From Mobula hypostoma (taxonomy: Eukaryota): a stretch of 64,000 nucleotides of DNA. Position 1 is the first letter of the stretch; each line of letters begins with the position of its first letter. Shown here piece by piece: positions 3,150 to 59,490 of this stretch. Under the pieces are notes generated by a model, which ran no database searches, was not told the DNA's origin, and saw only the letters and a list, made by a program, of their open reading frames with translations. The DNA lies in NCBI RefSeq assembly GCF_963921235.1, contig NC_086108.1:55368001-55432000 (forward strand), given 5' to 3'. A program made the position numbers and the translations under genes.

Positions 3150-6100
3150 ATTGCATAGGTAGAGCAGCAAGAATGGATCCCTGGGAAGTGCTGTGCTCAT
3201 CTTGACTGGTGTAGTCATCGGGAGCCCTCCAGTCTCCCTGACTTCCCACACCTGTGAGAAGTGCATCTGGGTGCAGCTCCTTCTAGACTGCGTTAGTGAG
3301 CTGGAGCTGGATGCCCTGTAGATCATTTGAGAGAATACGAGGTTGATAGACAGCAGTTACAGGGGGGCAGTCACACCGAAGTTCCAGGAGGCAAGGAGCT
3401 GGCTGATTGTCAGGAGAGGGAATAGGCAGATAATTTAGAATATCCTTAGAGCTGTTCCCCTCAATAACAAGTACACCACTTTTGATATAGCTGGAGGGGT
3501 GACCTTCCAGGGAAAGATGCAGTGACCAGTCTCTGGCATGGAGTCTAGTTCTGAGGCTCAGAAGGGAAAGTGGTGGAGGGGTGGATGAGGAAGAGTGGTG
3601 GTGATAGGGAATACAGTATTTGGTGGAGAAGGCATGAGATTTTGTGCATGTGGAAGATGCACCCAGATGGTATGTTGCTTCCCAGGTGCCAGAGTCAGGG
3701 ATGTCTCATTTTGGGCCCACAGCATTCTTCAGGGGTGGGGGGGGGGGAGAGTTAGCAGCTAGCAGCCCAAAGTTGTGGTATGTATTGGTGATAACAATGT
3801 AGGTATGGAAAGATCTGAGGTCCTGAAGAGAAAATGGGTAGCTAGGAAAAATGCTAAACGGGACCTGAAGGGTAGGAATCTCTGGATTGCTGCCTGTGCC
3901 ACACACCAGTGAGGGTAAGAATGAGATGATATGGTGGATGAATGTATGACTGAAGATTTGGTGCGTGGGGCAGGGTTTGAGATTGGTAGATCATTGGAAT
4001 CACTGCTGAGGAATATATGGCCTGAACAAAATGAATGAGATGAGAATCAGAATCAGAATCCTTTATTATCACCAAGTATGTGGACACATACAGGGAATTT
4101 GACGCCGGTTTCCCTGAGCTCTCGCTGTACCAGGGGTTGCACTTGAACTTGAGAGATTGTTGGAGAGGGTTTAAACTAATTTGGCAAGAGGATGGAAAAC
4201 TGTGATGGGTCAGATGATGGAACAATTGGTGTCAAGGTAGATGCGAAATGTAGAGAAACTGAGGAAGGAGAGGCAGTGGACTGAAATGTTGTCAACTGGA
4301 CTTTAATATCAGAAGTATCAGAAACAAGGGTGATGAACTCAGCATTGGTCAGTACATGGAACTATAACATTGTGACCATTCCAGGCACTTGGCTGTCAAT
4401 AGGGCAAGAATGGCTGCCATATGCTCAGGGGTTTAGATGTTTCAAAGGGAACAAGGAGGAAGGTAAGAGGTGGACGAATGACATTGGTCATCACAGCTGC
4501 AGAAAGGGAGGACATCATGGAAGGATCATCTATGGAGTCAGTGTGGGTGCACATTAGAAACAGGAAGGGAGTAGTCTTTCTTTTGAGAGTATTTTGTATG
4601 ACCGCCAATAGCAACTGAGGAGCAGATCATTGGTAGATTTTGGAAAGGTGCAAAAATAACAGGATTACTGTCATGGGTGACTTCAAATTCCCTAATATTG
4701 ATTGACACCAGGTGGAACATTTAGTCAAGAGGAAGAAGGAAAGATACTTCAGATTTAGGAGAAGGAAGGATACTTAAGGTTTAGCAAGCAAAAATCAGAC
4801 AGGGTTCATGAGAGTTATAAAGAAGCCAGGAAGAAGCTTAAGAATGTACAGTAATTAGGGGAGCTAAAAGAGGGTGTGAGGTGGCCTTAGCAAATAGGAT
4901 ATAGGAAAAGCCCCAAAGCATTCAACATGTATGTGAACAACAGGGGGATGACTAGAGAGAGGGCAGAACTGACCAGATTTTTTTTGAAAAAAAGGAAATG
5001 TGCTTGGAGTCTGAGGAGGTGAGGAAGGTCCTTAATGTATTCATCAGTGAGAGATCTATAACAAATGTGAGTTCAGTGCAGAGTAGGCTGATGTATTGGA
5101 ACATGTCAAGTTAAGAATGCAGGTGTGCTGGTACTTTTGAAAAGCATTAGTGTAGATAAATCCCTGGGATCAGACAGGATATATCCCAGGTTAATACGAG
5201 AAGTAAAGTTGGTAATGATCGTTGCATCCTCACTGCCCACAGAAGTAGTACTGGAAGACTGGATGGTGGTAAATGTCATTCCTCTGTTCAAGAACGTTAA
5301 TAATGATCTTCCTGGAAAATATAGATGAGTGAGTCTTAACATCAGTGGTAGGCAAGTTATTGGAGAGGACTTCGAAAACCAGGATTTGGAGAAGCAGAGT
5401 CTGGTTAGGGATCATGTGCATGGCTTTGTGAGAGGCAGGTCATACCTTGAGAACTTGACTGACTTTTGCGAGGAAGTGACAAAACTAATTGAGGGTAGAG
5501 TAGTAGATGTGGTGTGAGGTTCCCCATGGTACGTTTATTCAGAAAGTCAGAAGACGTGGGGTCAGGGAGATGTGGCTGTATGGATTTGAAATTGGCTTGC
5601 CAATTGAAGGTAGATGATACTAGTGGATGGAACATATTCTACCTGGAGGCTCATGACATGTGATGTTCCACAGGAATCAGCTTTGGGAGCCATTTTTTTA
5701 AATGATTTTGATAAATGACTTGGATGAGGAAGTAGAAGGATGGGTTAGTTGGTGGTGTGGTGGATAGTGTAGAAGGTTGTCATAGGTTACAATAGAATAT
5801 TGATCAATTGCAGAGCTAGGTTGTGAAGTTGCAGGTGGAGTTCAACCTGGAAAAGTGTCAATTGATTCATAGTGGCAGGATTCTTAGTATGAAGGAATAA
5901 TGGGATCTTGTGCAAGTTGATAGAATGGTTAAGAAGGTGTATTGGCCTTCATTAGTTGGAGGACTGAGTTCAAGAGTCACAAGGTAATGTTGCAGCCTCA
6001 TAAAACTCTAGTTAGATTACATTTGGAATATTGTTTTCAGTTTTGATCACCTCATTATAGGAAGAATGTGGAAACTGGAGAGGGCACAGAGGAGATTTAA

Positions 6101-6500
6101 TGGGTTCTTTCTGGATTAGAGAGCATGTGTTATGAGGAAATGCTGAATGAGCCAAGACTTTTCTCTATGGAGTGAAGGAGGATGAGAGGTGAATTGTAGA
6201 AATGTCTAAGTTGACAGAAGGCTTAGATAGAGTGGACAGTCAGTGCCTCTTCCCAGGGTGGCAATGGCTAATACTTTTAATGTGCTTAGAGGTAACTATA
6301 GGGAAAATGTCAGAAGTAGGTTACTCACAGTGGTAAGTGTGTAGAGTGCACTGGTGGGGGTGGTGAACATTTAAGAGACTTGTAGATCAGCATATGGAGA
6401 GTTATTTGGGAGGGAAGGATTAGAATGATCTGGAGTAGATTAAAGGGATGTCACAACATTGTGGGGCCTGTACTGGGCTGTACTCTATGTTCCATGTTTA
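3150..6500 (+). mobile_element. Near full-length, heavily decayed CR1 LINE (ORF1 esterase, APE endonuclease, RT, tail)
   Basis: tgcttcccaggtgccagagtcagggatgtc (CFPGARVRDV, SGNH-type ORF1) near 3677; atgggtgacttcaaattccctaatattgat (MGDFKFPNID) near 4673; ORF 5125-5328 (DKSLGSDRIYP..NVIPLFK); CR1 tail near 6460-6495. Confidence 0.9.
4042..4125 (-). mobile_element. Short LINE 3' tail (Rex1-like) inserted in CR1 ORF1
   Basis: (agaatc)n followed by tttattatcacc, the same terminus as the Rex1-like tails near 9295, 19425 and 56500. Confidence 0.6.
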
Positions 6501-6739
6501 GTTACACTATTTCTTCTGTTAATGTTTGTGTGGATCAATGCACACTCAGCCTCATTTCATCATCTGAAGAGATTTCTTCTAGACACTCTCTAATCTTAAT
6601 ATTTCCTGGTTTCTTACCTTAATGCTAGACCAACTGAAAATAACACATTACCTACTTACTTAATAGGAATTGCTGTATTTAATCACCCTATCCTAGTTCT
6701 AACCAAGCAGGCTTAACTATTTAGATCTGTAGAGACCCA

Positions 6740-7800
6740 AAATACTGCACTTGGAACCTGGAATAATAAACAATCTGTTGGAGAAACTCGATGGGCCAAG
6801 CAGCACCTGTGGGAAGAAGGGAGTTGTTGACATTTCAGAAAGGGGATTGAGAATATTTGGATAGCTGCTGGAGGGAGTTGAGCAAGAACACAAAAGGCTA
6901 GCAGTGCTGGGATCTGCCATTCACCATTCTCCTAATGGTCCCTGTGACCTCTTTATCAGATTTCAGCACTGGTCACCCTTTGTATTCCTCCTTATCTCCT
7001 TCCACTTCCCTGCCCTACCTTACACCATCTCTCTCAATTTTTCTATTTGGCAGATGAATGATGTATGAAGGCTTCCACCGTCTCCCAATTCCACACCCCA
7101 TCTACCCTCTCTTACCTAGCATCGCCTTCTTGTTATCCTTCTTCCTTACTTGGTCTACCAATCACCTCGGACACCTGTCTCTCCACTCAGAGAATCCTCT
7201 GTGTTCTCTACTTCTACTCCAGATTCAGAGTTTCCATCTGAAATTTCTTTCCTTCCACAGATGCTGCTAAACCTACTGAGTTCCTCAATCAGGTTGTTTG
7301 ATGTTTTGGATGTGTATTTTTATTTTCTTTTATAGACCCTCTAAGACCTCCTATTTCTTCTTGTAGTATGGATCCTGGTGCATAAAGGTCTTCGCTTTGT
7401 TATTGGTCTTTTAATTTGTAAAAATTAGAAAAATAGATTCATTTAGGAAAGATTCCCAAATTTTAGTTTGGTAAAATAATTATTCAAAGCGGAATCAACT
7501 CAATATTTAATGATGTGTATTGCAGAAGGTCATCCTGTCTTTTATTACGTTATTAGAAAAAATAATCGGTCTCTGTCCACTCTCTCCATGCACAGATCAT
7601 CAGGCCAGGGCTTTGATTCCTTTGTAGATTAATTTGAGAACTAAATAACAGAAAAAGGTGAATATAGCCAATAGATAGACAAATCTGATGAAAGACCGCT
7701 AATATGAAATGTTTACACCTTTAACTCTATTTCTTCTTCCACATATATTGCATGTTTCCAACACCTATTTCTGATTCCCAGCATCTGCAGTTTTGAACCT
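6740..7800. repeat. Old PLE terminal-repeat remnants in both orientations
   Basis: ccacagatgctgctaaacctactgagttcctc (7255-7287), degenerate ctgatgaaagacc..gaaatgtt (near 7685-7713), ccagcatctgcag (near 7778), reverse copy near 6775-6840. Confidence 0.55.
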
Positions 7801-7920
7801 CTATTTGTGAAAATTACACAGGCTGCTCTATAGCTGGGGTATCAGGCAGACATGCTCATTGATCCTTTTTTTTAATTAACCTCGAAGTCTTTCTTGGCGG
7901 GGAATTGATTATACTGTATT

Positions 7921-9267
7921 TAGAAACATAGAAAACCTACAGCACAATACAGGCCCTTTGGCCCACAAAGTTGTGCTGAGCATGTCTCTACCTTAGAAGT
8001 TACTAGGCTTCCGCATAGCTCTCCATTTTCCTAAGCTCCATGTGCCTATCCAAAAGTCTCTTTAAAAATCCTATCGTATCCGCCTCCACCAGCGTTGCCG
8101 GCAGCCCATTCCACACACTCACCACTCTGAGTTAAAAAAAAACTTACCCCTGACATCTCCTCTGTACCTACTCCCCAGCACCTTAAACATGTGTCCTCTT
8201 GTAGCAGCCACTTCAGTCCTGGGAAAAAGCCTCTGACTATCCACACGATCAATGCTTCTCATCATCTTATATACTTCTATCAGGTCACCTCTCATCCTCC
8301 GTTGCTCCAAGGAGAAAAGGCCGAGTTCACTCAACCTATTCTCATAAGGCATGCTCCCCAATCCAGGCAACATCCTTTGTAAATCTCCTCTGCACCCTAT
8401 GGTTTCCACATCCTTCCTGTAGTGAGGTGACCAGAACTGAGCACACTCTCCAAGTGGCGTCTGACCAGGGTCCTATATAACTGCAGCATTGCCTCTTGGT
8501 TCCTAAATTCAATTCCACGATTGATGAAGGCCAATGCACCGTATGCCTTCTTAACCACAGAGCCAATCTGCGCAGCTGCTTTGAGCGTCCTATGGACTCG
8601 GACCCTAAGATCCCTCTGATCCTCCACACTGCGAAGAGTCTTACCATTAATACTATATTCTGCCATCATATTAGAACTACTAAAATGAACCACTCCACAC
8701 TTATCTGAGTTGAACTCCATCTGCCACTTCTCAGCCCTATTTTGCATCCTATCAATGTCCCGTTGTAACCTCTGACAGCCCTCCACACTATCCACAACAC
8801 CTCCAACCTTTGCGTCATCAGCAAACTTACTAACACATCCCTCCACTTCCTCATCCAGGTCATTTATAAAAATCATGAAGGGTCTCAGAACAGATCCCTG
8901 AGGCACACCACTGGTGACTGACCTTCATGCAGAATATGACCCGTCTGCAACCACTCTTTGCCTTCTGTGTGCAAGCCAGTTCTGGATCCACAAAGCAATG
9001 TCCCCTTGGATCCAATGCCTCCTTACTTTTTCAATAAGTCTTGCATGGGGTACCTTATCAAGTGCCTTGCTGAAATCCATATACACTGCATCTACTGCTC
9101 TTCCTTCATTAATGTGTTTAGTCACATCCTCAAAAAATTCAATCAGGCTCGTAAAGCATGACCTGTCCTTGACAAAGTCATGCTGACTATTCCTAATCAT
9201 GTTATGCCTCTCCAAATGTTCATAAATCCTGCCTCTCAGGATCTTCTCCATCAACTTACCAACCATT
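7921..9267 (-). mobile_element. CR1 LINE, 5'-truncated (RT and tail)
   Basis: Minus ORFs 8925-9470 (part), 8397-8906 (PQGSVL..FADDAKVGG) and 8119-8409; tail tagaaacatagaaaacctacagcac. Confidence 0.95.
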
Positions 9268-20004: not shown

Positions 20005-20935
20005 AAAGGAGATAAAAAAGGGAATGAATGAATGAATAATAAATAAAATAAATAAATAAATAAGGGATGGTGTATGAAGGGGAGGTGGGGCATTAACGGA
20101 AGTTAGAGAAGTCAATGCTCATGCCATCAGGTTGGAGGCTACCCAGACAGAATATAAGGTGTTGTTCCTCCAACCTGAGTGTGGCTTCATCTTGACAGTA
20201 GAGGAGGCTGTGGATAGACATATCAGAATGGGAATGGGACGTGAAATTAAAATGTGTGACCACTGGAGGATCCTGCTTTCTCTGGCGGACAGAGCATAGG
20301 TGTTCAGCAAAATGGTCTCCCAGCCTGTGTCGGGTCTCACCAATATACAGAAGGCCACATCGGGAGGTCCAGACGCAGCATATCACCACAGCCGACTCGC
20401 AGGTGAAGTGTCGCCTCACCTGGAAGGACTATCTGGGGCACTGAATGGAGGAACAACACCTTATATTCCGTCTGAGTAGCCTCCAGATTGATGGCGTGAA
20501 CTTTGACTTCTCTAACTTCCGTTACTGCCCCTCCTCCCCTTCGTACCCCATCCCTTATTTATTTATTATTCATTCATTCCCTTTTATATCTCTCTCTTTT
20601 TTTCTCCCTCTGTCCCTCTCACTATAACTCCTTGCCTGTTCTCCATCCTCTGGGCTCCCCTCCCCCTTTCTTTCTCCCTAGGCTTCCTGTCCCATGATCC
20701 TCTCCCTTCTCCAGCCTTCTATCCCTTTTGCTAATCAACTTTCCAGCTCCTGGCTCCATTCCTCCCCCTCTTGTCTTCTCCTATCATTTTGGATCTCCCC
20801 TTCCCCCTCCCACTTTCAAATCTCTTACTAGCTCTTCTTTCAGTTAGTCCTGATGAAGGGTCTCGGCCCAAAATATCAACTGTTCTTCTTCCTATTGATG
20901 CTGCCTGCTGCGTTCACCAGCATTTTCTATGTTCG
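20005..20935. mobile_element. PLE with inverted architecture: minus-strand GIY-YIG fragment (20005-20443) abutting a plus-strand terminal repeat (20445-20935)
   Basis: ORF 20093-20419 (HFTCESAVVICC..LLYIGETRHRLGDHFAEHL); 20008-20172 is roughly the reverse complement of 20446-20592; degenerate hammerhead at 20846-20882. Confidence 0.9.
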
Positions 20936-21519: not shown

Positions 21520-23983
21520 TAGTAGATTCTGGTTAAATGAGCCATTGGTTAAATCAAGGCAGCCACTTATTTGGGACAACACAACTCTTAAAAGATCAAA
21601 AATTAATCAAGAAAAAAAAATTGGGGTTCCCTTTATTTATTTACGACACTGTGCCTCTTAATCGGACAGGAGACCTTTGCCAAAGGTTCTAACTAGCCTC
21701 AGTCACGTGTACTTGTATGGCTGTTAAACATTTTTCTGTGCTTAGCGTGAACAGTTTTTAAATAGCATCAGTTGCATGTGCTTGTGTTCAAAAAACAGTG
21801 ATTTTTGTCACTGATAGTTGGCAAGAAATCTGCAATGCAAGAACTTGAAATTGTTATGCTCCCTGCAGTTTCAAGCATTCAGGCTTGGAGATTCCAGAAA
21901 AGGCCAGGAGTGAAAATGAAAAAATTTCACGACTTTAACAAGTTAGGAACTACAAAGAATTTTAAGGTACATGTTTCCCCCGCCATCCGAAGGTAGAAAC
22001 GGTTCGTAAGCCGGAATGTCGTAAAGCAAAGAAGCAATTACCATTAATTTATACGGGAAAAATTTGTAAGCGTTCGCAGACCCAAAAGTAACCTACCAAA
22101 TCATGCTAAATAACACACAAAACCTAAAATAACAGTAACATTTAGTAAAAGCAGGAATGATATGATGAATACACAGCCTATATAAAGTAGATTTTCACTA
22201 CAGAGAACAGTGTGGCAATGATTGTATTTTCCACAATCACTGCTGCACTGTTCTCCGTAGCGAAAATCTCACGCAAGCGCTGTCAGCAGAAACACGGCGC
22301 AAGCGCTCTCCAGTAACCTTTAAGCTATGAAGCTGCCAAATCATACCAAATAACACATAAAAATACACAGCCAATATAAAGTAGAAATAATTTATATACA
22401 GTGTAGTATCACTTACGGGAATCGGGAAGACATCGAGCACACTGATGATGATGTGTTAGGCTGAGTCGTCGGAGGTTGGGGTGGTGCAGTGGTCCCCACC
22501 CTCCGGGCAGCAAACCGATACCGATCCACGAAGAATGCAGGGGTACAGCGGTGGCCAGAACACACCCAGCACATCTTTAAGAAAAAAGCCGAAACAAACA
22601 AGCTAATTAATTAGGTGCCACCCGGCACATAAATGTCAGCCCAGGCAATTGCCGATTGCGTCGCCTCTGATCTGGGCCGACATTTACGTGCCGGGCAGCA
22701 CCAAATTAATTAGCTTGTTTATTTCAGCTGTTTTCTTAAAAATGTGCTGGGTGCATTCCGGCCGCCTCTGCATTCTTCACAGATCGGTATCTGTCCGCGG
22801 CCCCGGGGTTGGGGTGGTGGGACACTGAGGTGTCATCTGTTTCCATCAGGGTAGGCAGGTCATCTTCTTCTATGTCTGCCTGCCTCGATGTCGAAGGTTG
22901 AAGTTTGTCGTCTGCTGTGGCTGATGTGGAAGGCTTGCTTGACTGTTTAGCCTTGCGCATTTTTAGATCATACAGTGCTTTGTAAGCACTCAAACCATCC
23001 TGCAACTATGCCCTAAACCAACATACCTTTTCAAAATTAAAGTCGTACTTTATCATTGCAGCGAAAATCTCACGCAGTTGCTTCACGTTCAGTTCCTTGA
23101 CGACGTCACTTTCGGTCCGTTCACTACTGCATTCGGTTTCAATTGTAATCCTTTCCTCTTCCAATTGCATCAGCTCTTCATCTATCAGTTCTTAGTCATG
23201 AGATGCCAAAACCTCTTCAACATCATCTTTGTCAACTTCCACAAGCCAAACTCACTTTGTCCTTGCTTCGTTCACCACGATCGAAACGCTTAATTATGTC
23301 TAGTTTTACGCTAAGTGCAACACACTTACGAGCTCTTTTAGGCTTTTCCGATACCTTAGAACTCATCTTGCAAACAGCTGCTCACAGCATGTGTTTAAGC
23401 AATGCTGGCTAGAAAGCAGTTCGGAATCTGGGGGAGAGCGGCTTCTCGGGGTGCGCGCTGCTTTTTGTCGCGTGCCGCTTTTTTCGCGCGCTGCCTTTTT
23501 TTGTAACAGTGAAAACACCTTCTGTTAGCGAAAACAGGGAACTAATGTAGGTCTTTCGTAACAGTGAGATTTCGTAAAGCGAACGTTCGAAAAGTGGGGG
23601 CCACCTATATGGACAATCATCTTGAATATTTTGATGAAATGAAAATTTGGATTATGCAATTGTCAAAGGCATTGCATGAAGGTAGTCCACTACGTGTCTA
23701 ACTGGAAATGAACAAAATCAGTGCAATCTAAAGAACACGGAATGAATGCCTCTGTCAAGAACTATTAGGAACTGCAGTTTTATAGTACTGTAGTAGTATT
23801 GTTAATGTTCTATCTTTGTTCTCTATTTCATTTAAATATATAATTTCTGATTCGGTTAAATGGTAGTTTATGTTTTTTAATACATTTTTCACTATTTCCA
23901 TGAAGTTTAGCTCATTGGGGTAACCACTTAATTGGGCCAAAATGTACCGATCGCGATGTGTCCCAATTAACCAGAATACACAG
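21520..23983. mobile_element. Non-autonomous pogo/Tigger-like element (host, ~820 bp without the insert)
   Basis: TA|tagtagattctggttaa ... ttaaccagaatacacag|TA; a second, inverted copy lies at 54529-55647. Confidence 0.85.
21970..23607 (-). mobile_element. Tigger/pogo deletion derivative nested at a TA
   Basis: TA TSD; ends catgtttcccccgc / gtgggggccaccta; acidic Tigger-like C-terminal remnants on the minus strand (GFVEVDKDDVEEVL, ORF 22736-23005 YKALYDLKMRKAKQSS). Confidence 0.85.
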
Positions 23984-34459: not shown

Positions 34460-36845
34460 ATAAGCACAAGAAAATCTGCAGATGCTGGAAATCTAAAGCC
34501 ACACACACAAAATACTAGAGGAACACAGGTGGTCAGGCAGCATCTATGGAAATTAATAGATAGTCAATGTTTCGGGTCAAGACCCTTCTTCAGGAATGAG
34601 AAGGAAGGGGGAAGATACCAGAATAAAAAGGTGAGGGGGAGGGGAAGGAAGAGAGCTAGAAGACGCTATGTGAAGCCTGATGGTTAGGAAAGGAAAATGG
34701 CTGGAGAGAAAGGAATCTGATAGGAGAGAAAAGTGGACTACAGGAGAAAGAAAAAGAGGAGAGGAATAGAGGAAAGAGGGTGGGAGGAAAATTTGTTTAC
34801 CGGAAGGAGAAATCAATATTCATGCCATCAGGCTGGAGGCTACCCAGACAGAATAGAAGCTGTTGCTCCTCCATCCTGAGGGAGGCCTCATCTAGGCACG
34901 CGAGCAGACAGCTCAGAAAGGGAATGAGAATCAGAATTTAAATGTTTGGCCATCAGGAAGTCCCGCTTGTAACAGATGGTGTGAAGGTGTTCGACAAAGC
35001 GGTCCCCTAATTTACAATGGGTCTTACCAATGTAGAGAAGGCATTGGGAGCACCGGACACAATAGACCAGCCCAGCAGATTCACAGGTGAAGTGCTGCCT
35101 TGCCTGGAAGTAATGTTTGGGGTCCTGGATGGAGGTGAGGGAGGAGGTGAATGGACAGGTATAGCACTTAGGCTGCTTGCAGGGAGAAGTGCTGGGAGGA
35201 AGATTAGTGGGAAGGGACGAATGGACAAAGGAATCGCAGAAATGGGGGCAGCGGCAAATGAAGATGGCGGAAGGCATGAAGGAAAATGTATTGGATACAG
35301 AGGCTCATGGAGTGGTAGGTAAGGACAAGAAGAACTATCACTGTTGAGGCAGTGGGAAGGTGGGGTGAAAGTAAATGACCGGGAAATGGAGATTTGGGTA
35401 AAGGCAACATCAATGGTAGAGGGAAGGATACCCCATTCTTTAAAGGATGAGGACATCTCTAATGTCCTGGAGTGAAAGGCCATGTCCTGAGAACAGATAC
35501 AGCAGAGGTGAATAAACTGAGAAAAGGGAATAGCACTTTTACAGGAGATAAGGTGGGATGAGGTATTGCCGAGATAGCCGTGGGAATCAGTAGGGTTATA
35601 GAAGATGTTGGTTAACAGTTTGTCTCCAGAGATGGAGATAGAGAGAGATCAAGAAGGGGATCAAGTGAATTTAAGGGCAGGGTGAAAGTTAGAGGCAAAG
35701 TGGATAAAATTGATGAGGTCAGCATGAAGCAGTGCCAACACAGTTGTCAATGTAGCAGAGGAAGAGCTGGGGAGTATTACCAGGGAAGGTGCCAAACATG
35801 GATGGTTCTACGTAGCCAATGCAGAAGCAGGCGTAGCTGGGGCCCATGTGAGTGCCCATCACTACCCCTCAAACTTGGAGAAAGTGGGAGGAGCTAAAGG
35901 TAATATTCTTCAGAGCGAGGACCAGGTCTGCCAGACAGAGGAGGGTGTTGGGGTGGGGAATTGGTTGGTTCTTTCATCAAGAAAGAGGTAGAGAGGTTTG
36001 AGGCCTTCTCGATAGGGCATAGAAGTGTATAGGGACTGAATATCCATGGTGAAGATGAGGCAGTCAGGGTCAGGGAATTGAAGGTTACTGAGGAGATTGA
36101 GGGCATACAAAGTATCACTGATATATGTGGGATGGGACTGAAGCAAGGAGGCTAGAATGGAATCGAGATATGAAAACACTAGTTTAATGGGGCAGGAGCA
36201 AGCAGAGACCCAAAGAGTCTGGTTTGTGGATCTTGGGTAGGAGGTAGAAGGTGTTGTAAGGAAACTATGAGTTTTGTGGCAGTGGTTGGGAGATCTCCAG
36301 TGTGGATGAGGTTAGTGGTGAAAGAGGTTTATGATGGTCTGGAGTGGGATCCTCTTTGAGGGCTAAGTATCTTGAGAGTTGCCACCTCACCAAGGTAGAG
36401 GTCAGTGTGCCACACTACAACAGCACCCTGTTTGTCTGTGGGTTTGATGACAAGGTTGAAATTGCTGCAGAAAGAGTGAAGGACAATACGTTCAGAGGGA
36501 GCAAGGTTGGGGGAGGAGAGAGAAGTTTTGAAGTCGAGACAGTTGATGTCTCGTTGATAATTTGAAATGAAGAAGAAGATCTTTTCATTTCATTCAGTGT
36601 CCAAGAAGAGAAAGAGGGTTGAAGACAGGAGAAAGGATTATTAGCATGGGATGTAGAATCCTTGCCAAAGTGTACTCGGAAACTGAGGAGATGAGAGAAG
36701 AACAGACGCAGAACTCAGAGTTGCAGGCAAAGGGAATCAAAGGTGAAGCCCTTTCTGAGGAGAGAACATTCTGCCTCAGAGAGGGGCAGGTTGGAGGGAA
36801 CGGTGAAAACCCGGCAAGGATTAATGCTGGGATCAGGCGGGGTAC
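34460..36845 (-). mobile_element. Long Penelope-like element (RT, Cys-rich linker, GIY-YIG, terminal repeat), decayed
   Basis: ORF 35910-36179 (IFTMDIQSLYTSMP), ORF 34888-35277 (CKQPKCYTC..YCVRCSQCLLYIGKT); terminal repeat 34460-34790. Confidence 0.92.
34562..34597 (-). ncRNA. Hammerhead ribozyme motif, partly degenerate
   Basis: Minus strand reads attc CTGAAGA a GGGTC tt GACCC GAAAC att gact. Confidence 0.7.
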
Positions 36846-40059: not shown

Positions 40060-40424
40060 ACACTATAACTCCTTCCCTGCTCTCCATCCTCTGGGCTCCT
40101 CTACCACTTTCTTTCTCCCTAGGCTTCCCGACCCATGATCCTCTCCCTTCTCCAGCCTTCTATCCCTTTTGTCAATCAACTTTCCAGCTCTTAGCTCCAT
40201 CCCTCCTCCTCTTGTCTTCTCCTATCATTTCGGATCTCCCCCTCCACCTCCCACTTTCAAATCCCTTACTATCTCTTCTTTCAGTTAGTCCTGACGAAGG
40301 GTCTCGGTCCGAAACGTCAACTGTACCTCTTCCTATAGATGCTGCCTGGCCTGCTGCGTTCACCAGCATTTTTTGTGTGTGTTGCTTGAATTTCCAGCAT
40401 CTGCAGATTTCCTCATGTTTGCGT
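40060..40424 (+). mobile_element. Solo PLE terminal repeat
   Basis: Highly similar to 20620-20935; ends ccagcatctgcagatttcctcatgtttgcg. Confidence 0.9.
40287..40323 (+). ncRNA. Minimal hammerhead ribozyme (core intact, weakened stems)
   Basis: agtc CTGACGA a GGGT ctcg GTCC GAAAC GTC aactg. Confidence 0.8.
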
Positions 40425-48212: not shown

Positions 48213-49232
48213 GTGTGTAACACCTGGATAGCACCGGTCTTACCACATGTGACTAGTCGCCATACTCTTTGAGAAAATCAAATTACACTGAGTGCTGGTA
48301 GACTATCAGAAGAGCCAGGTATCAGAAAGAGGGAGTGAATAGAAACCATACTCTTCTGGGGATAAGGTTTTTTTAATAAGAAGAAAAACTATACTAAATA
48401 TTTACATGAGCAAGAACAATTCAAAATTCCAACATTTTGTTGATAAGTTCCAAATCTGAGATATTAAACCATAACAAATTCCTTTTTAATTAGAAGCAGT
48501 GAGATTCCTTTATTACTCTGATCTACCTAACTAGACCTAGTGTTACTCCCTGTTTAAAAGTTTACAGACTGAACTTTCCTTTTTACTTATCCCTAGTTAG
48601 TTAGAAAACCAAATATAATTCCTATTCTCAAGTATTATATTTAATTTCAGTTTCAGTTCCAGGCAGCATATCTACAAGTTTAATTTCAAATTCAAAAATT
48701 ATATATACACAGTTTAACTCCTTTCACGACAATTCTCCAACATCACAACTTTTAAACAAAGTAAATCTCATTCAGTAACTTCCAAAGTCTTTGCAAAAGT
48801 AGTCAACTCTTGCAGAAAATCAAATTCAGATTCTTCGAATGAAAATAAACTTGTGCATCCAACTGTATAAAATCCTCTGCGTCATTACACATTTCGTTCC
48901 CGCGCTGGTTCTTCACCTTGGGTGGCACACCATCTTGTTTCTTAGTTCATTGAATGAAATAGTTTATCATCCACAGTAAGTCAGTTCATAAACTTGTACA
49001 AAAACTTTACCAAATCCCTTGGTATGATTTTACAAAACTAATTCCTGACTACACAGTAGGGATTTTGGACACTGGTCTCTGCCGATATTGTCTCGTTATA
49101 GCTGTAGCTTCAATAAATCTTTTATCGCTATCGTCTCTCCTCCAGGAGTTTCACCCTGAGGATTTCCAGTTAGTAGGATAAAGATACTCACTACTAATTC
49201 CACTCTAACAGTTCATGTCTTCAGTTTCTAAT

Positions 49233-49431
49233 AACACACACAAAATGCTGGTGGAACGCAGCAGGCCAGGCAGCATCTATTGGAAGAGATACAGTCGACA
49301 GTGTCCTGATGAAGGGTCTCGGCCGGAAACGTCGACTGTACCTCTTCCAATAGATGCTGCCTGGCCTGCTGCGTCCCACCAGCATTTTGTGTGCGTTGCC
49401 TGAATTTCCAGCATCTGCAGATTTCCTCGTG
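49233..49431 (+). mobile_element. Mini fold-back PLE-derived insert carrying a hammerhead, 13-bp TSD
   Basis: TSD ttcagtttctaat at 49220-49232 and 49432-49444; arms about 49233-49299 and 49331-49397. Confidence 0.92.
49303..49337 (+). ncRNA. Minimal hammerhead ribozyme (stem II closing pair mutated)
   Basis: gtc CTGATGA a GGGT ctcg GCCG GAAAC GTC gac. Confidence 0.78.
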
Positions 49432-49666
49432 TTCAGTTTCTAATCGTTGCTTTGTTTTTCTCCTTATCCATACGTGCGTCCAGCCCCGCTCCGCCCTCAC
49501 ATAGTGTTGTTTTTCAAATTTTCTTTTTTTAAAATTGCTAACCCTTGTTTTTATCCCTCTGCAGGTGGAGCTTTCTGACATTACATCTTGGGGTTTAATT
49601 AATCTGGGTTACTTCCTCAGAGAGCTAAACTAATTTGGCATGTCCCCTTTGACTCTCACCATTACA

Positions 49667-49854
49667 GCATGTCGTGGAAAATGCAGCTAGTGCTCCATGT
49701 AGATGTGCTCAAAGGTGGGGTGGGCTTTACCTGTGATGGACTAGGCTGTACCCACTGCCTTTCGTAGGCATTATTGTTTCCATACCAGGCTATGATGCAA
49801 GCAGTCAGTATACTCTCCACCGTGCATTTACATGAGTTTGCCAAAGCTTTAGAT
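49667..49854 (-). mobile_element. Rex1/Babar fragment (resumes at 53342)
   Basis: VESILTACIIAWYGN in ORF 49662-50180; colinear with the copy at 59230-59420. Confidence 0.85.
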
Positions 49855-50905
49855 CTGGGGTCTAATTGTGGTTTGATTGTGGTTTCCCTTCTACCGTCAT
49901 CAATGATGCCCTCACCCGCATCTCCTCCATTTCCCGCACTTCGGCCCTCACCCCATCTTCCCGCCACCACAACAGGGACAGAGTTCCCCTTGTCCTCACC
50001 TACCACCCCACCAGACTCCGGATCCAGCACATTATCCTCCACAACTTCCGTCACCTTCAACAGGACCCCACCACTAAGCACACCTTTCCCTCTCCCCCCC
50101 CCCTCCGCTTTCCGCAGGGATCGGTCCCTCCGCGACTCCCTTATCCGCATGTCCATCCCCACAGATCTCCCACCCGGCACTTACCCCTGTAAGCGTAAGT
50201 GCTACACCTGTCCCTACACCTCCTTTCTTGCCACCATTCAGGGCCCCAAACAGTCCTTCCAGGTGAGACAACACTTCACTTGTGAGTCTGTTGGGGTCAT
50301 CTATTGCATCCGGTGCTCCCTGTGCGGCCTTCTCTACATCGGTGAAACCCGACGCAGATTGGGGGACCGCTTTGTCGAGCACCTCCATTCCGTCCGCCAC
50401 AACAGACAGGATCTCCCGGTAGCCACGCACTTCAGCTCTGCTTCCCGTTCCCATTCAGATATATCCATACTCGGCCTCCTCTACTGCCATAGTGAGGCTA
50501 AACTCAGATTGGAGGAGCAACACCTCATATACTGTCTAGGTAGTGTCCAGCCCCTTGGTATGAACATAGAATTCTCCAACTTCCGGTAATTCCCTCCATC
50601 TCCCTTACTCTATCCCTATTTCACTCTGCCGCCTCCCCTAGCTGCCTATCACTTCCCTCATGGTTCCGCCTCCTTCTACTACCCATTGTTTTCCTGCCTA
50701 TCACCTCCCTGCTTCCCCTCCCCAACCCCTTTGTCTTTCAAATTACTGGTTTTTCAACTGCACCTACCAGCCTTTTTCCAACCCTCCCCCACCTTCTTTC
50801 TTCAGTCCTGACGAAGGGTTCCGGCCCGAAACGTCGACTCATCGTTTCCACTGATGCTGCCCGATCTGCCGAGTTCCTCCAGCGTGTTGTGAGTGCTGCT
50901 TAGAT
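49855..50905 (+). mobile_element. Relatively young 5'-truncated PLE (linker, GIY-YIG, terminal repeat)
   Basis: ORF 49866-50192 (RDRVPLVLTYHP) shifts in the poly-C at about 50094-50103 into the frame of 49774-50589 (CKRKCYTC..GVIYCIRCSLCGLLYIGETRRRLGDRFVEH..MNIEFSNFR*). Confidence 0.95.
50804..50839 (+). ncRNA. Minimal type-I hammerhead ribozyme, intact
   Basis: AGTC CTGACGA a GGGT tccg GCCC GAAAC GTC^GACT: stem I AGUC/GACU, stem II GGGU/GCCC, complete core, predicted cleavage after 50835. Confidence 0.88.
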
Positions 50906-53341
50906 CAGGGATCCCCAAACGTTTTTGCATCGCGGACCGGTTTAATGTTCACAATGTTCTTGTGGACCGGCTGGGGTGTGGGGTGTGTTAATCACGACGG
51001 AATATAGGTGATAAGTCAACTATAAGTCACTTATAAGTGGCTAATACACTCAATTTCATTTCTAAAAGGGTTTATCTAATGAATTTATTATTAAACACAC
51101 AGTGCATATTTTCTTCCCATGAATATAGTGATAAGTCAATTATAAGTCACTTATAAGTCAATAGCATCATAACATTTTAAGTAACGTTTGGATATTAAAC
51201 ACACAGCGTGTATTTTCCTCATATGAATATATAAAATCATTGCAACACACCAATATCGCTGAATCAGTGGGAGCCCTGGGCTTGTTTCCCTGCAACAAGA
51301 CGGTCCCATCGAGGGGTGATGGGAGACAGCGATACTCGAAGGGGGTTCCTTATGTCCAGTCTATTCCGCATTTTAGTTTTCGTTGCATTCATTGTAGAAA
51401 ACCCTGCTTCGCAGAGATATGATGTTGGAAATGGAAGCAATGTTTTCAGTGCTTTCGTGGCTATCTCAGGATATTCAGCCTTGACTTTGATGCAGAATGC
51501 CGGCAGAGATGTTATGTTAAACATACTTTTCATCCCACCATCATTTGCAAGCTCGAGGAGTTGATCTTCCCGCGCTGACATAGATGATTCACTGGGGACA
51601 TTCACAAGTGGGTCACGGACCCATTCCATTGCACGTCTTGGGTCATTTGCGGTTGGGAAGTTACGCTCGAATTCTGTCAACAGCGAAGTTAGGTGGTCGC
51701 GCACCAGCTGTGAGAAGGACGGTGCAGCCTCAGTCTCTCCCAAAATCCCAGCTAATGTTGGGAACATGTCAAATATGCCCCTGTCCATTCACTGTCCCCA
51801 CAGTTCCAGTTTGGCTTTGAAAACAGACACTTTATCTGCCAACTTGAAGACAGTTGTCATTCTCCCCTGAAGTGACAAATTGAGTTCATTGAGCATGTTG
51901 AAGATGTCACACAGATAAGCGAGTTTTGCTATCCACTCCTCGTCACTGAAGTGTGCTGCCAGTGGTGACTTTTTTCCTGAAAGAAATCTCTGTAGCTGCT
52001 CTCTTAACTCAAAAACCCTGGCCAGGGCTCTGCCCCTTGATAGCCACCTGACTTCAGTGTACAAGAGAAGGCGTTTGTGCTCTGCATCCATTTCCTCGCA
52101 AAGCTGCTCAAACAGATGTGAGTTAAGGGCTTTTGCTTTGATGTGATTGATAACTTCAACAACGTCACTCAATACGCTGTGAAGATCAGGTGACATTTTT
52201 CAGCTAGCCTGCATTTCCCTGTGTGTAACACAGTGCGTAGACTGGCATTCAGGAACAACCTCTTTGACTCGGGTAATGAAACCAGACAGCCGTCCAGTCA
52301 TAGCTGCAGCCCGTCTGTGCATATTCCAACTCAAAATGACCAGTCCAGTTTGCCTGACGTGTAGTCATTCAAAGACTTGAATAGTTCTGCCCCAGTTGTG
52401 TTCATTGGCAGCGGCAGTGCACACAACATATCCTCATGCACATTGTCTTGAAATATATATCGCACATAAACCAGCAGTATTGCCTTGTTGTCGATATCGG
52501 TAGTCTCATCGACCTGGATAGCATACCGTGGTGACTCGTTAAGCCGTTCCAACAGCTGTGCTTCGATGTCCTCCGCTATGTCATTAATTCTCCTTGAAAC
52601 TGTGGTAGCTGAAAGAGAAACCTGTGCCATCTTGTTAGCTGCAGCTTCTCCCAACAGTTCACGGCAAATGTCCTTGGCAGCAGGCAGAATCAATTCTTCA
52701 CCAACTGTGAAAGGCTTCTTAGCCTTAGCAATACGGCTAACCACTAAGTACGACGCTCACAGAGCAGCAGCATTTGTGGAGGTGGTGGCTCTCTGCACTT
52801 GCTTCTGTCCCGCTTGCTGACGTTTTTCCCGCTCAAAAAACTCAATGGGTTTTCATTACGTTCAGGGTGCTTGGACTCAAGGTGCCAAAGCAGATTTGAG
52901 GGCCTCATTGCCTCATTAGACAGCTTGTCTCCACATATCACACACAGGGGGCTTGGAGCGTGCGAGTCACCAGTCACAATAAAGCCATATTTTATGTACA
53001 ACTCGTCGTATTTTCTGTTGAAGGAAGCTTTCGATTTTTTTGCAGTCTCGGCCTCAGCTGTCTCTGCGTGATCATAATCGTTAGCCTTTTATGTCCCCTA
53101 CCATGTCTTCCAAAGAAACTCTGAAGCGATGTTTATTTTTTACTCATCGAGTAGTTTTAGGTTATACCGACTGATGACCTCGCGTGTGTTCAAGTTCAAC
53201 AGTGGGCATGACAGGGAATGAGGAAAGGTGCAGCTGACTCGTATCGTTTCATATCGCCAAATCATATCGTTTCCTCGCAGCACGGTAGCACATGCTTTGC
53301 GGCCCGGTACCAGTCCGCAGCCCGATGGTTGGGGACCACTG
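50906..53341 (-). mobile_element. Full-length hAT (Charlie/Buster) transposon with frameshifted transposase
   Basis: TIRs CAGGGATCCCCAA / TTGGGGACCACTG; flanks gcttagat / ctttagat; minus ORFs 52744-53001 (BED finger CVICG..HLESKH), 52331-52744 (YAIQVDETTDI), 51789-52196 (TEVRWLSRG), 51264-51788 (SYLCEAGFS..KQAQGSH*). Confidence 0.96.
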
Positions 53342-53885
53342 CTTTAGATGACACACTGAATCTTTGCAAACTTCTAAGAAAGTAGAGGCACTGACAAATC
53401 ATCTGTCTGACGACACTTGCGTACTGAACCCAGGACAGACCTTTTGACAGAAGGATTTAAAGGCATTGACCTTCTCCACCTCTGACCCCTTGATGAGGAC
53501 TTGCTCATGGACTTCCGCTTTCCTCCTCCTGCAGTCAATAATCAGCTCTTTTTTTTTTGCTGACGTTGTATGTGAGGTTGTGGCACCATTCAGCCAAATT
53601 TTCAACCTCCCTCCTTTGATTCGTCAACAACAGTGGTGCCCTCAGCTACCTTAAGTATGGTATTGGAGCTGAACTTAGCCTCACAGTCATAGTCATACTT
53701 TGAGTAGAGCCGGAGGCTGAGCACACAGCCTTTGCCAGTGGCGATTATAGAGGAGATGATACCAATCTGAACTTACTGGGGTCTACAAATGAAGAAATCG
53801 AGGCTCCAGTGGGGCACAAAGATGTATCAAAGCCTAGGTTTTGGAGCTTATTGATTGGCTTTGTGGGGATGATGGTTTTGATTTC
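53342..53885 (-). mobile_element. Rex1/Babar continuation
   Basis: ORF 53399-53605 (KKELIIDCRR); resumes the sequence broken at 49854. Confidence 0.8.
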
Positions 53886-58769: not shown

Positions 58770-59490
58770 ACCAAAATTCAAAGTAATTTTATTATCAAAG
58801 TACATGTATATCACCATATGCAGTACATCCCTGAGATTCGTTTTCTTGCAGGCATACATGGTATATCCAAGAAACACAACAGAGTCAGTGCAAGACTGAA
58901 CCTAACAAGATGGACAAACAACCAGTATGCAAAACACAACAAACTGTGCAAATACAAAAGAGAGAAATAAGAATGATAGCTAAGTAAATAAACAATAAAT
59001 ATCGAGAACATGAGATGGAGTCCTTGAAAGTGAGTCTACAGGTTGTGGGAACAGTTCAGTGATGGGGGAAGTGAAGTTGAGTGAAGTTATTCCTGCTGGT
59101 TGAGAGGTAATACCTGTTCCTGAACCTGGTGGTGTGGGTCCTGAGGCTTTTGTAACTTTTTCCTTATGGTGGCAGCTGCGAGAAGAGAGCATGTCTGGGT
59201 GATGGGGATCCCTGATGATGGATGCCGCTTTCCTGCGATAGTGCTCTGTGTAGGTGTGCTCAATGGTGAGAAGGAGTTTACCTGTGATGGATTGGGCTGT
59301 ATTCACTTCTCTTTGTAGGCTTTTCTGTTCAAGGGCATTGGTGTTTCCATACCGTGCTGTAAAACAACCAGTCAATATACTCTCCACCACAAACCAAAAG
59401 AAATTTGTCAAAGTTTTAGATGTCATGCCGAATCTTCACAAACTTCTAAGGAAGTAGAGGCACTGCCATGCTTCATAATGGCACTTACAT
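58770..59490 (-). mobile_element. Rex1/Babar 3' fragment
   Basis: ORF 58980-59426 (VESILTGCFTARYGN..KAASIIRDPHHP). Confidence 0.88.

What the first reader, a model, noticed from the sequence alone, without database searches (positions are those of the whole stretch)
50804..50839. Intact minimal hammerhead ribozyme in a Penelope terminal repeat
Seen: AGUC-CUGACGA-A-GGGU(UCCG)GCCC-GAAAC-GUC^GACU about 215 nt after the GIY-YIG stop codon. All core nucleotides are present, stems I and II each have 4 bp, there is an extra A after A9, and stem III is reduced to the loopless palindrome ACGU. Established: PLEs carry minimal type-I hammerheads thought to cleave as dimers through a palindromic stem III. 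Inference: this copy can still self-cleave, probably only when paired with a second copy, so any transcript running through this locus could be cut.
Basis: partly seen in the sequence, partly recalled or inferred. Interest (0 to 1): 0.78.

Follow-up and report, generated by a model that had tools for sequence, protein, structure and literature searches.

The report
Hammerhead in a dead Penelope copy
The 36-base motif is a real, intact copy of the tiny self-cutting RNA already known from Penelope-type jumping genes, one of 641 identical copies in this genome and sitting in a broken element; it likely cuts little or nothing here, because no sound partner copy lies nearby and the genome's copies were likely made from uncut RNA that starts at the motif.

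Summary
50804-50839 (+) is a minimal type I hammerhead 214 nt after the GIY-YIG stop of a 5'-truncated, frameshifted Penelope-like (Neptune-type) fragment. It is a known kind (PMC4209133) and not special here: 641 identical 36-mers exist genome-wide, 15 of 29 closest copies are equally intact, and it decays at the rate of flanking DNA. Stems covary between four hammerhead families of this genome (29 of 32 pairs) but not within this family. The claim that transcripts through this locus get cut is weak: the four other copies in the window are damaged, the nearest is locked in a hairpin, no host transcript was shown, and related ribozymes cut poorly as dimers or only with element protein. Side result: short copies pile up at the ribozyme's first bases (42 of 100 at one base, equivalent to 50805) and run through the cut site, while ends at the cut are about 19-fold rarer, so the element RNA likely starts at the ribozyme and is copied uncut. 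The scan noted this pattern before in other genomes; I tested it here. Interest low.

The parts
50804..50839 (+). Minimal type I hammerhead (stem I 50804-07/50836-39; core 50808-14; extra A 50815; stem II 50816-27; GAAAC-GUC 50828-35; predicted cut 50835/50836)
50804..50805 (+). Inferred 5' end of the element RNA (TCAGTCC initiator-like context, motif recalled); short genomic copies begin here
49875..50900 (+). 5'-truncated Penelope-like element fragment, 90-93% identical to its closest genomic relatives; lacks the RT catalytic region that relatives carry upstream
49875..50589 (+). Remnant ORF (end of RT, linker, GIY-YIG endonuclease), broken by a 1-nt insertion in the C run near 50100; stop 50587-50589
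50188..50211 (+). CX3CXXC zinc-finger-like linker (CKRKCYTC), a mark of Neptune/Nematis PLEs
   Evidence: definition in PMC8557442
50293..50520 (+). GIY-YIG domain (Pfam PF01541, E 1.7e-4, 22.3 bits, just under the 22.6 cut-off)
50590..50900 (+). 3' terminal repeat (pLTR) with about 60 nt of tail after the cut site
49847..49854 (+). CTTTAGAT, repeated at 53342-53349 and imperfectly at 50898-50905: likely target duplication in an older repeat split by the insertion; 20-nt filler at 49855-49874
50906..53341 (-). Decayed DNA transposon with short terminal inverted repeats directly downstream (hAT-like by recalled resemblance; no Pfam hit)
49302..49337 (+). Nearest same-strand hammerhead copy (sister subfamily): G10.1.G11.1 and U.U mismatches, cut site buried in the 49234-49397 fold-back; begins at the base equivalent to 50805
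40287..40322 (+). Second same-strand copy; C.A mismatch at the first stem I pair
20846..20881 (+). Third same-strand copy; G12 changed to A
34562..34597 (-). Opposite-strand copy; ACGU palindrome and stem I broken

Best explanation
This is a sequence-intact minimal type I hammerhead in the terminal repeat of a truncated, frameshifted Penelope-like retrotransposon copy, likely a neutral relic that cuts little or no RNA at this locus. Shown: motif, element anatomy, copy numbers, neutral decay, damaged neighbours, covariation across families, pile-up of copy ends at the ribozyme's first bases. Inferred: in the active ancestor, RNA likely started at 50804/50805-equivalent bases, two copies would pair through ACGU to form a double hammerhead in which each core cuts the other's GUC^, probably slowly and with help from the element protein, and the RNA that was reverse-transcribed was mostly uncut. 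A GUC^ cut would remove a leader of about 31-32 nt.
For: 641 identical 36-mers and 12,869 matches to a 33-nt pattern; 79,573 and 105,157 exact 19-mers of the sister subfamily. Fragment 49875-50900 lacks upstream RT and has a frameshift. Among 29 close relatives the 36 nt differ from the majority at 3.35% of cells against 3.56% upstream and 4.5% downstream; 7 of 29 are identical and 15 of 29 pass the structural criteria. Across four families 29 of 32 majority pairs in stems I and II are standard pairs; the next best of 24 family permutations gives 24, and 0 of 100,000 per-pair shuffles reach 29. All four other window copies are damaged. In a folded 49200-50950 transcript the cross-copy pairs have probability below 1e-36. 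The monomer's best fold locks core GACG onto CGUC (p about 0.99). Copy 5' ends: 42 of 100 at the base equivalent to 50805, and 62 of 76 copies starting within 3 bases of TCC match the cut-site region. Literature: no monomer cleavage and low dimer cleavage (PMC4209133); Anolis PLE hammerhead cleaves only with element protein, uncut RNA is the insertion substrate, and no RNA-seq reads end at its cut (PMC11167929).
Against: No cleavage assay and no RNA data for this locus. The nearest-neighbour model ignores hammerhead core tertiary contacts, so it understates the active fold. With tens of thousands of copies, a partner RNA in trans is conceivable. The 29 relatives were chosen by similarity, which biases divergence down. 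Family C could not be tied to a PLE ORF, and families D and E only through weak GIY-YIG-end hits in 3 of 20 and 2 of 20 loci. Neptune assignment rests on a motif, not a tree. The end pile-up is strongest in the sister subfamily; in the focal subfamily 5 of 10 short copies start at the 50805-equivalent base and 2 at the 50804-equivalent base.
Confidence: 0.85

Rival explanations
1. One reading: this copy is catalytically competent and cuts a meaningful share of + strand transcripts crossing the locus by pairing with a second copy, in cis or in trans.
For: Core, both stems and G10.1-C11.1 are intact. All 20 double-hammerhead pairs of a homodimer are standard pairs. Identical partners are abundant genome-wide. 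PLE hammerheads do cleave as dimers in vitro (PMC4209133; Lunse et al., title seen only in a reference list).
Against: Cis partners are damaged or sequestered. The double-hammerhead fold scores -14.7 kcal/mol against -23.8 for two monomers and -28.9 for the best dimer (core contacts not modelled). No host exon among the 395 frames of 55 aa or more scanned with Pfam (only mobile-element domains hit). No sign of selection. Only 5 of 46 junction copies start at the cut.
Confidence: 0.1
2. A domesticated, host-serving ribozyme kept intact by selection at this locus.
For: 0 of 36 bases differ from the family majority while 12 of 265 flanking pLTR bases do.
Against: At about 4.5% divergence a 36-nt stretch stays clean about one time in five (arithmetic). 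7 of 29 relatives are identical. No host gene context was found.
Confidence: 0.02
3. The pile-up of copy ends at the ribozyme start marks a 3' splice site (pyrimidine tract + AG|TCC) or a reverse-transcriptase stall, not a transcription start.
For: TTCTTTCTTCAG|TCC resembles an acceptor. In D. virilis Penelope the intron ends at the 5' end of helix I (PMC4209133), and its start site is 46 bp upstream of a 75-bp intron (PMC2377424).
Against: Upstream sequence is not a constant exon: of the 42 copies at the peak, 20 join an inverted copy and 22 join unrelated or other DNA. Junctions keeping G alone outnumber those keeping AG by 42 to 15, unlike typical exon ends (recalled consensus). A stall would be expected at the 3' side of a hairpin (inference).
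Confidence: 0.15

Closest known systems
[quoted passage not shown]
   Same: Type I, no helix III, palindromic 15.2-16.2, extra base between 9 and 10.1, G10.1-C11.1, short stem I, in pLTR of a GIY-YIG PLE, mostly dispersed single copies of truncated elements, inverted pairs common; reported in fish Xena, Poseidon and Neptune, coelacanth and Xenopus.
   Different: Stem II is only 4 bp (7-8 bp in their Schistosoma family). Copy number is far above their 4,000-9,000. No cartilaginous fish was found in the parts read or searched.
Poseidon PLE of Anolis carolinensis, PAc (PMC11167929; passages and second part of the main text)
   Same: pLTR hammerhead; reverse transcription starts in a tail downstream of the ribozyme at two sites, matching the two 3' end clusters (about 100 and 133 nt from TCC) seen here; uncut RNA is the template.
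   Different: PAc is Poseidon; this element has the Neptune/Nematis Cys linker. This copy is dead and untested.
Neptune clade of EN+ PLEs (PMC8557442; passages)
   Same: C-terminal GIY-YIG, CX2-5CXXC linker, 5' truncation, partial tandems and inverted 5' copies, tail, hammerhead in pLTR.
   Different: No tree with named Neptune references was built.
Animal non-LTR retrozymes (PMC7229834, passages; bioRxiv 10.64898/2026.07.22.740005, part 1 of 5 and passages)
   Same: Type I hammerheads that work better as dimers; reported from one chondrichthyan; proposed to derive from PLE pLTRs.
   Different: Retrozymes are non-coding tandem repeats; this is a single pLTR attached to a GIY-YIG ORF remnant.

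Membership tests
Metazoan PLE minimal hammerhead (min-HHR) | Core CUGANGA ... GAAA ... UH intact, type I topology | tested here: met
Metazoan PLE minimal hammerhead (min-HHR) | No helix III; palindromic 15.1-16.1 (ACGU) | tested here: met
Metazoan PLE minimal hammerhead (min-HHR) | Extra nucleotide between 9 and 10.1 and G10.1-C11.1 pair | tested here: met
   (extra base A in three families, U in one)
Metazoan PLE minimal hammerhead (min-HHR) | Stems I and II supported by covariation | tested here: met
   across four families 29 of 32 pairs; not within the family
Metazoan PLE minimal hammerhead (min-HHR) | Located in the pLTR of a PLE | tested here: met
Metazoan PLE minimal hammerhead (min-HHR) | Self-cleavage as a dimer | not testable with these tools
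   needs an in vitro assay
Rfam hammerhead families | Match to a curated covariance model | tested here: not met
   no hammerhead among 5 matches at E<=1
EN+ Penelope-like element | Telomerase-like RT followed by C-terminal GIY-YIG endonuclease in one ORF | tested here: met
   GIY-YIG in this copy; relatives such as L043 carry RT and EN in one 499-aa frame whose homologues bear PF00078 and PF01541; this copy itself lacks the RT core
Neptune clade | CX2-5CXXC linker between RT and EN | tested here: met
   CKRKCYTC at 50188-50211; shared with Nematis
Neptune clade | RT phylogeny groups with named Neptune elements | not tested
Active, transposition-competent PLE copy | Full ORF with upstream pLTR | tested here: not met
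   5' truncation at 49875 and 1-nt insertion near 50100
Non-LTR retrozyme | Tandem non-coding repeats each carrying a hammerhead | tested here: not met
   single pLTR on an ORF remnant; no adjacent tandem unit

The most novel reading that the evidence does not exclude
In this lineage the hammerhead is the capped leader of the element RNA: transcription starts at its first or second base, the uncut RNA is what gets copied into the genome, and dimer- or protein-triggered cleavage removes the capped 31-32 nt as an off switch on translation or RNA life, not as a way to free unit-length RNA. Each intact pLTR like this one would then be a small promoter-plus-ribozyme cassette, tens of thousands of times over.
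Probability: 0.3. Interest if true: 0.55.

Novelty: new member of a known kind. Interest (0 to 1): 0.2.

Why it matters
The locus itself matters little: it is one of hundreds of identical relics. The family-level result bears on an open question that the papers read state openly, namely what PLE hammerheads are for (PMC8557442; PMC11167929). Genome footprints here favour an RNA that begins at the ribozyme and is copied uncut, which makes a precise test possible (capped 5' ends versus 2',3'-cyclic phosphate ends). Partial tandems with two intact ribozymes, such as L182 (1,578 nt apart), are better substrates for that test than this locus.

Tried and rejected
Rfam scan: no hammerhead model matched. 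Within-family covariation: 34 of the 60 copies changed on both sides of pair 10.2-11.2 still pair, against about 28 expected from the marginals (hand count); double changes at 2.1-1.1 are mostly CpG-type transitions, with A.A and G.A also common among the first 100 of 288 listed. Rejected as support. Auto-inhibition by GACG/CGUC pairing as a conserved off switch: families C, D and E mostly have A or G at N7, so it is not general. Cut-site footprint: of 46 copies with a junction near the cut, 5 start at +1 and all 4 of these in the sister subfamily are inverted-copy joins; no spike. Cap-derived extra G: 13 of 42 and 5 of 15 junctions are preceded by G in the sister subfamily and 7 of 10 at the A start in the focal subfamily (hand count): inconclusive. 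TATA box: TATAAA/TATAAG at -30 in family E (10 of 14), but TTCAAA at -31 in the sister subfamily and TTCCAA at -28 in the focal one: not established for this copy. Host gene: none found by Pfam on 395 frames of 55 aa or more; short exons would be missed. Sequencing runs: no RNA holder listed; no reads were laid, so expression stays open. Sigma-70 scan is irrelevant for a eukaryote. C2:120.38 Mb, fetched as a candidate full tandem, is an inverted pair. Lunse et al. (PMC5785218) is not held. Literature searches: 'hammerhead ribozyme'+'Penelope'+'shark' gave 1 irrelevant hit; 'hammerhead ribozyme'+'Callorhinchus' gave 0; 'Penelope-like'+'pLTR'+'transcription start site'+'hammerhead' gave 3 papers, 2 listed, not read for this point. 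These searches cover only the open library.

Full report
Observation. The sequence at 50804-50839 (+) is exactly as described: AGTC CTGACGA A GGGT TCCG GCCC GAAAC GTC GACT, 214 nt after the TAA at 50587-50589 that ends a GIY-YIG frame. The loose core pattern has 7 matches in the window against 1.46 expected. Rfam has no matching hammerhead model among 5 matches at E<=1.

The element. Homology to its 29 closest genomic relatives (90-94% identical) starts at 49875 and ends near 50900. Relatives continue upstream into RT, including the catalytic YIDD region; this copy does not. It also carries a 1-nt insertion in the C run near 50100. The linker CKRKCYTC (50188-50211) fits the CX2-5CXXC motif of Neptune/Nematis PLEs (PMC8557442), and a preprint found only Neptune and Poseidon in vertebrates, so Neptune is likely; no tree was built. 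The closest named protein relatives of a longer copy (L043) are from rays and sharks. The fragment and a DNA transposon at 50906-53341 together split an older repeat: the flanks match one continuous copy at 59239-59468, and CTTTAGAT is repeated at the junctions. It is a dead insertion.

How special is the intact ribozyme? Not at all. The genome holds 641 identical 36-mers, 12,869 matches to a 33-nt pattern, and 79,573 exact core 19-mers of a sister subfamily; reversed controls give 0. Among the 29 relatives, 7 are identical and 15 keep core, 4+4 pairs and G10.1-C11.1. Ribozyme columns vary at 3.35%, the upstream pLTR at 3.56% and the tail at 4.5%. The relatives were picked by similarity, so absolute values are low, but there is no sign of selection after insertion.

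Covariation. Within the family there is none worth the name: double changes are mostly transitions (hand counts). A pattern that asked only for the core and GAAACGTC returned other recurring families. I sampled three of them (20 copies each); further small families in that listing were not sampled. Their stems differ completely in sequence and keep pairing: 29 of 32 family-level pairs, with all four Watson-Crick types at 10.2-11.2; the next best of 24 family permutations gives 24; 0 of 100,000 per-pair shuffles reach 29; 617 of 712 copy-level cells pair. Families D and E have weak GIY-YIG-end hits just upstream in 3 of 20 and 2 of 20 loci; family C was not tied to a PLE ORF. The structure was therefore under selection in active ancestors.

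Could it cut here? In a double hammerhead each core cuts the other copy's site (geometry modelled), so this copy's own site depends on a partner. The four other copies in the window are damaged: 49302 has G10.1.G11.1 and U.U mismatches and its cut site is fully paired inside a -137.5 kcal/mol fold-back; 40287 has a C.A mismatch next to the cut; 20846 has lost G12; 34597 is on the other strand and broken. In a folded 49200-50950 transcript the cross-copy pairs have probability below 1e-36. The isolated monomer prefers a rod in which core GACG pairs with CGUC (-11.9 versus -7.9 kcal/mol), and the homodimer's hammerhead fold scores -14.7 against -23.8 for two monomers. These energies omit core tertiary contacts and are indicative only. 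No host exon turned up in 395 frames scanned with Pfam, only mobile-element domains; no RNA holder was listed, so expression is untested. Published relatives show no monomer activity and low dimer activity (PMC4209133) or need the element protein (PMC11167929).

What copy ends say. Earlier scan notes on other genomes suggested looking at copy ends. Copies of the sister subfamily with an intact core 19-mer but foreign sequence 14-16 nt upstream number 10,322 of 79,573 (13.0%). Of the first 100, 42 begin at one base, the G of AG|TCC (equivalent to 50805), then 15, 6 and 3 at the next three upstream positions, roughly the decay expected from chance matches; 13 begin at or after the T (uniform-model p about 4e-21). 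Twenty of the 42 join an inverted copy and 22 join other DNA. All 76 copies starting within 3 bases of TCC extend 75-140 nt, in two clusters near 100 and 133 nt, and 62 of 76 match the cut-site region. The window's own 49303 copy starts at the same base. In the focal subfamily, 5 of 10 short copies among 30 loci start at the 50805-equivalent base and 2 at 50804; a hand count of the 100 listed gives 17 and 10 of 38. By contrast, copies with a junction near the cut are 2,279 of 105,157 (2.2%), spread over -5 to +9; 4 of 30 start at +1, all inverted-copy joins, and 1 of 16 in the focal subfamily. Per copy, ends at the ribozyme start are about 19-fold more common than ends at the cut (5.4% versus 0.3%, small samples). 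Inference: the RNA starts at the ribozyme, reverse transcription primes in the tail and runs off the 5' end, and the template is mostly uncut, as shown in vitro for the Anolis element. A splice acceptor at AG|TCC is the main alternative (D. virilis intron ends at helix I), but the upstream sequence is not a constant exon.

Comparison and verdict. It meets every sequence feature of the PLE min-HHR class (PMC4209133); cleavage could not be tested. I found no paper on these motifs in shark or ray PLEs, but a 2026 preprint reports retrozymes and PLEs in one chondrichthyan, one supplement file of PMC4209133 could not be searched, bioRxiv supplements are closed, and Lunse et al. could not be read. 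The scan itself holds 2,576 notes with these words in at least 71 genomes. This is a new member of a known kind, in a dead copy. The locus-level claim of transcript cutting is unlikely (about 10%). The family-level hint that the ribozyme is the RNA's 5' leader and is copied uncut is the only part of wider interest. Interest 0.2.

Noticed in passing
window 49234-49433: Fold-back unit of the sister subfamily: about 65-bp arms with a damaged hammerhead in the loop; the forward copy starts at the base equivalent to 50805.
   Followed up: partly
G000 genome-wide: Thousands of 100-135-nt solo 'ribozyme plus tail' copies start at the ribozyme's first or second base and end at two tail positions.
   Followed up: yes
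L121-L180 (families C, D, E) and smaller recurring motifs: At least three further minimal-hammerhead families with longer stems II (6-8 bp) in the same genome; D and E have a TATA-like hexamer at -40 and -30, C at -35.
   Followed up: partly
L182 (G000:C5:45246000-45251500): Partial tandem with two identical intact ribozymes 1,578 nt apart on one strand: a natural double-hammerhead candidate.
   Followed up: partly
window 49847-49854, 50898-50905, 53342-53349: A PLE fragment and a DNA transposon share one insertion point in an older repeat, leaving three copies of (C)TTTAGAT; order of insertion not resolved.
   Followed up: partly
window 22190-22267 (-): A near-perfect 78-nt hairpin that matches miRNA models below their cut-offs; possibly a small inverted-repeat element.
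   Followed up: no
G000:C90:7173248-7203228: Four copies of the same stem II double variant, three spaced 2,342 bp apart, suggesting a local tandem array.
   Followed up: no
P0001 and P0005: Ray protein records named as host genes (a kinase-domain protein isoform, a chitinase-domain protein isoform) are 74-80% identical to this PLE's ORF: exonised or mis-annotated PLE sequence.
   Followed up: no
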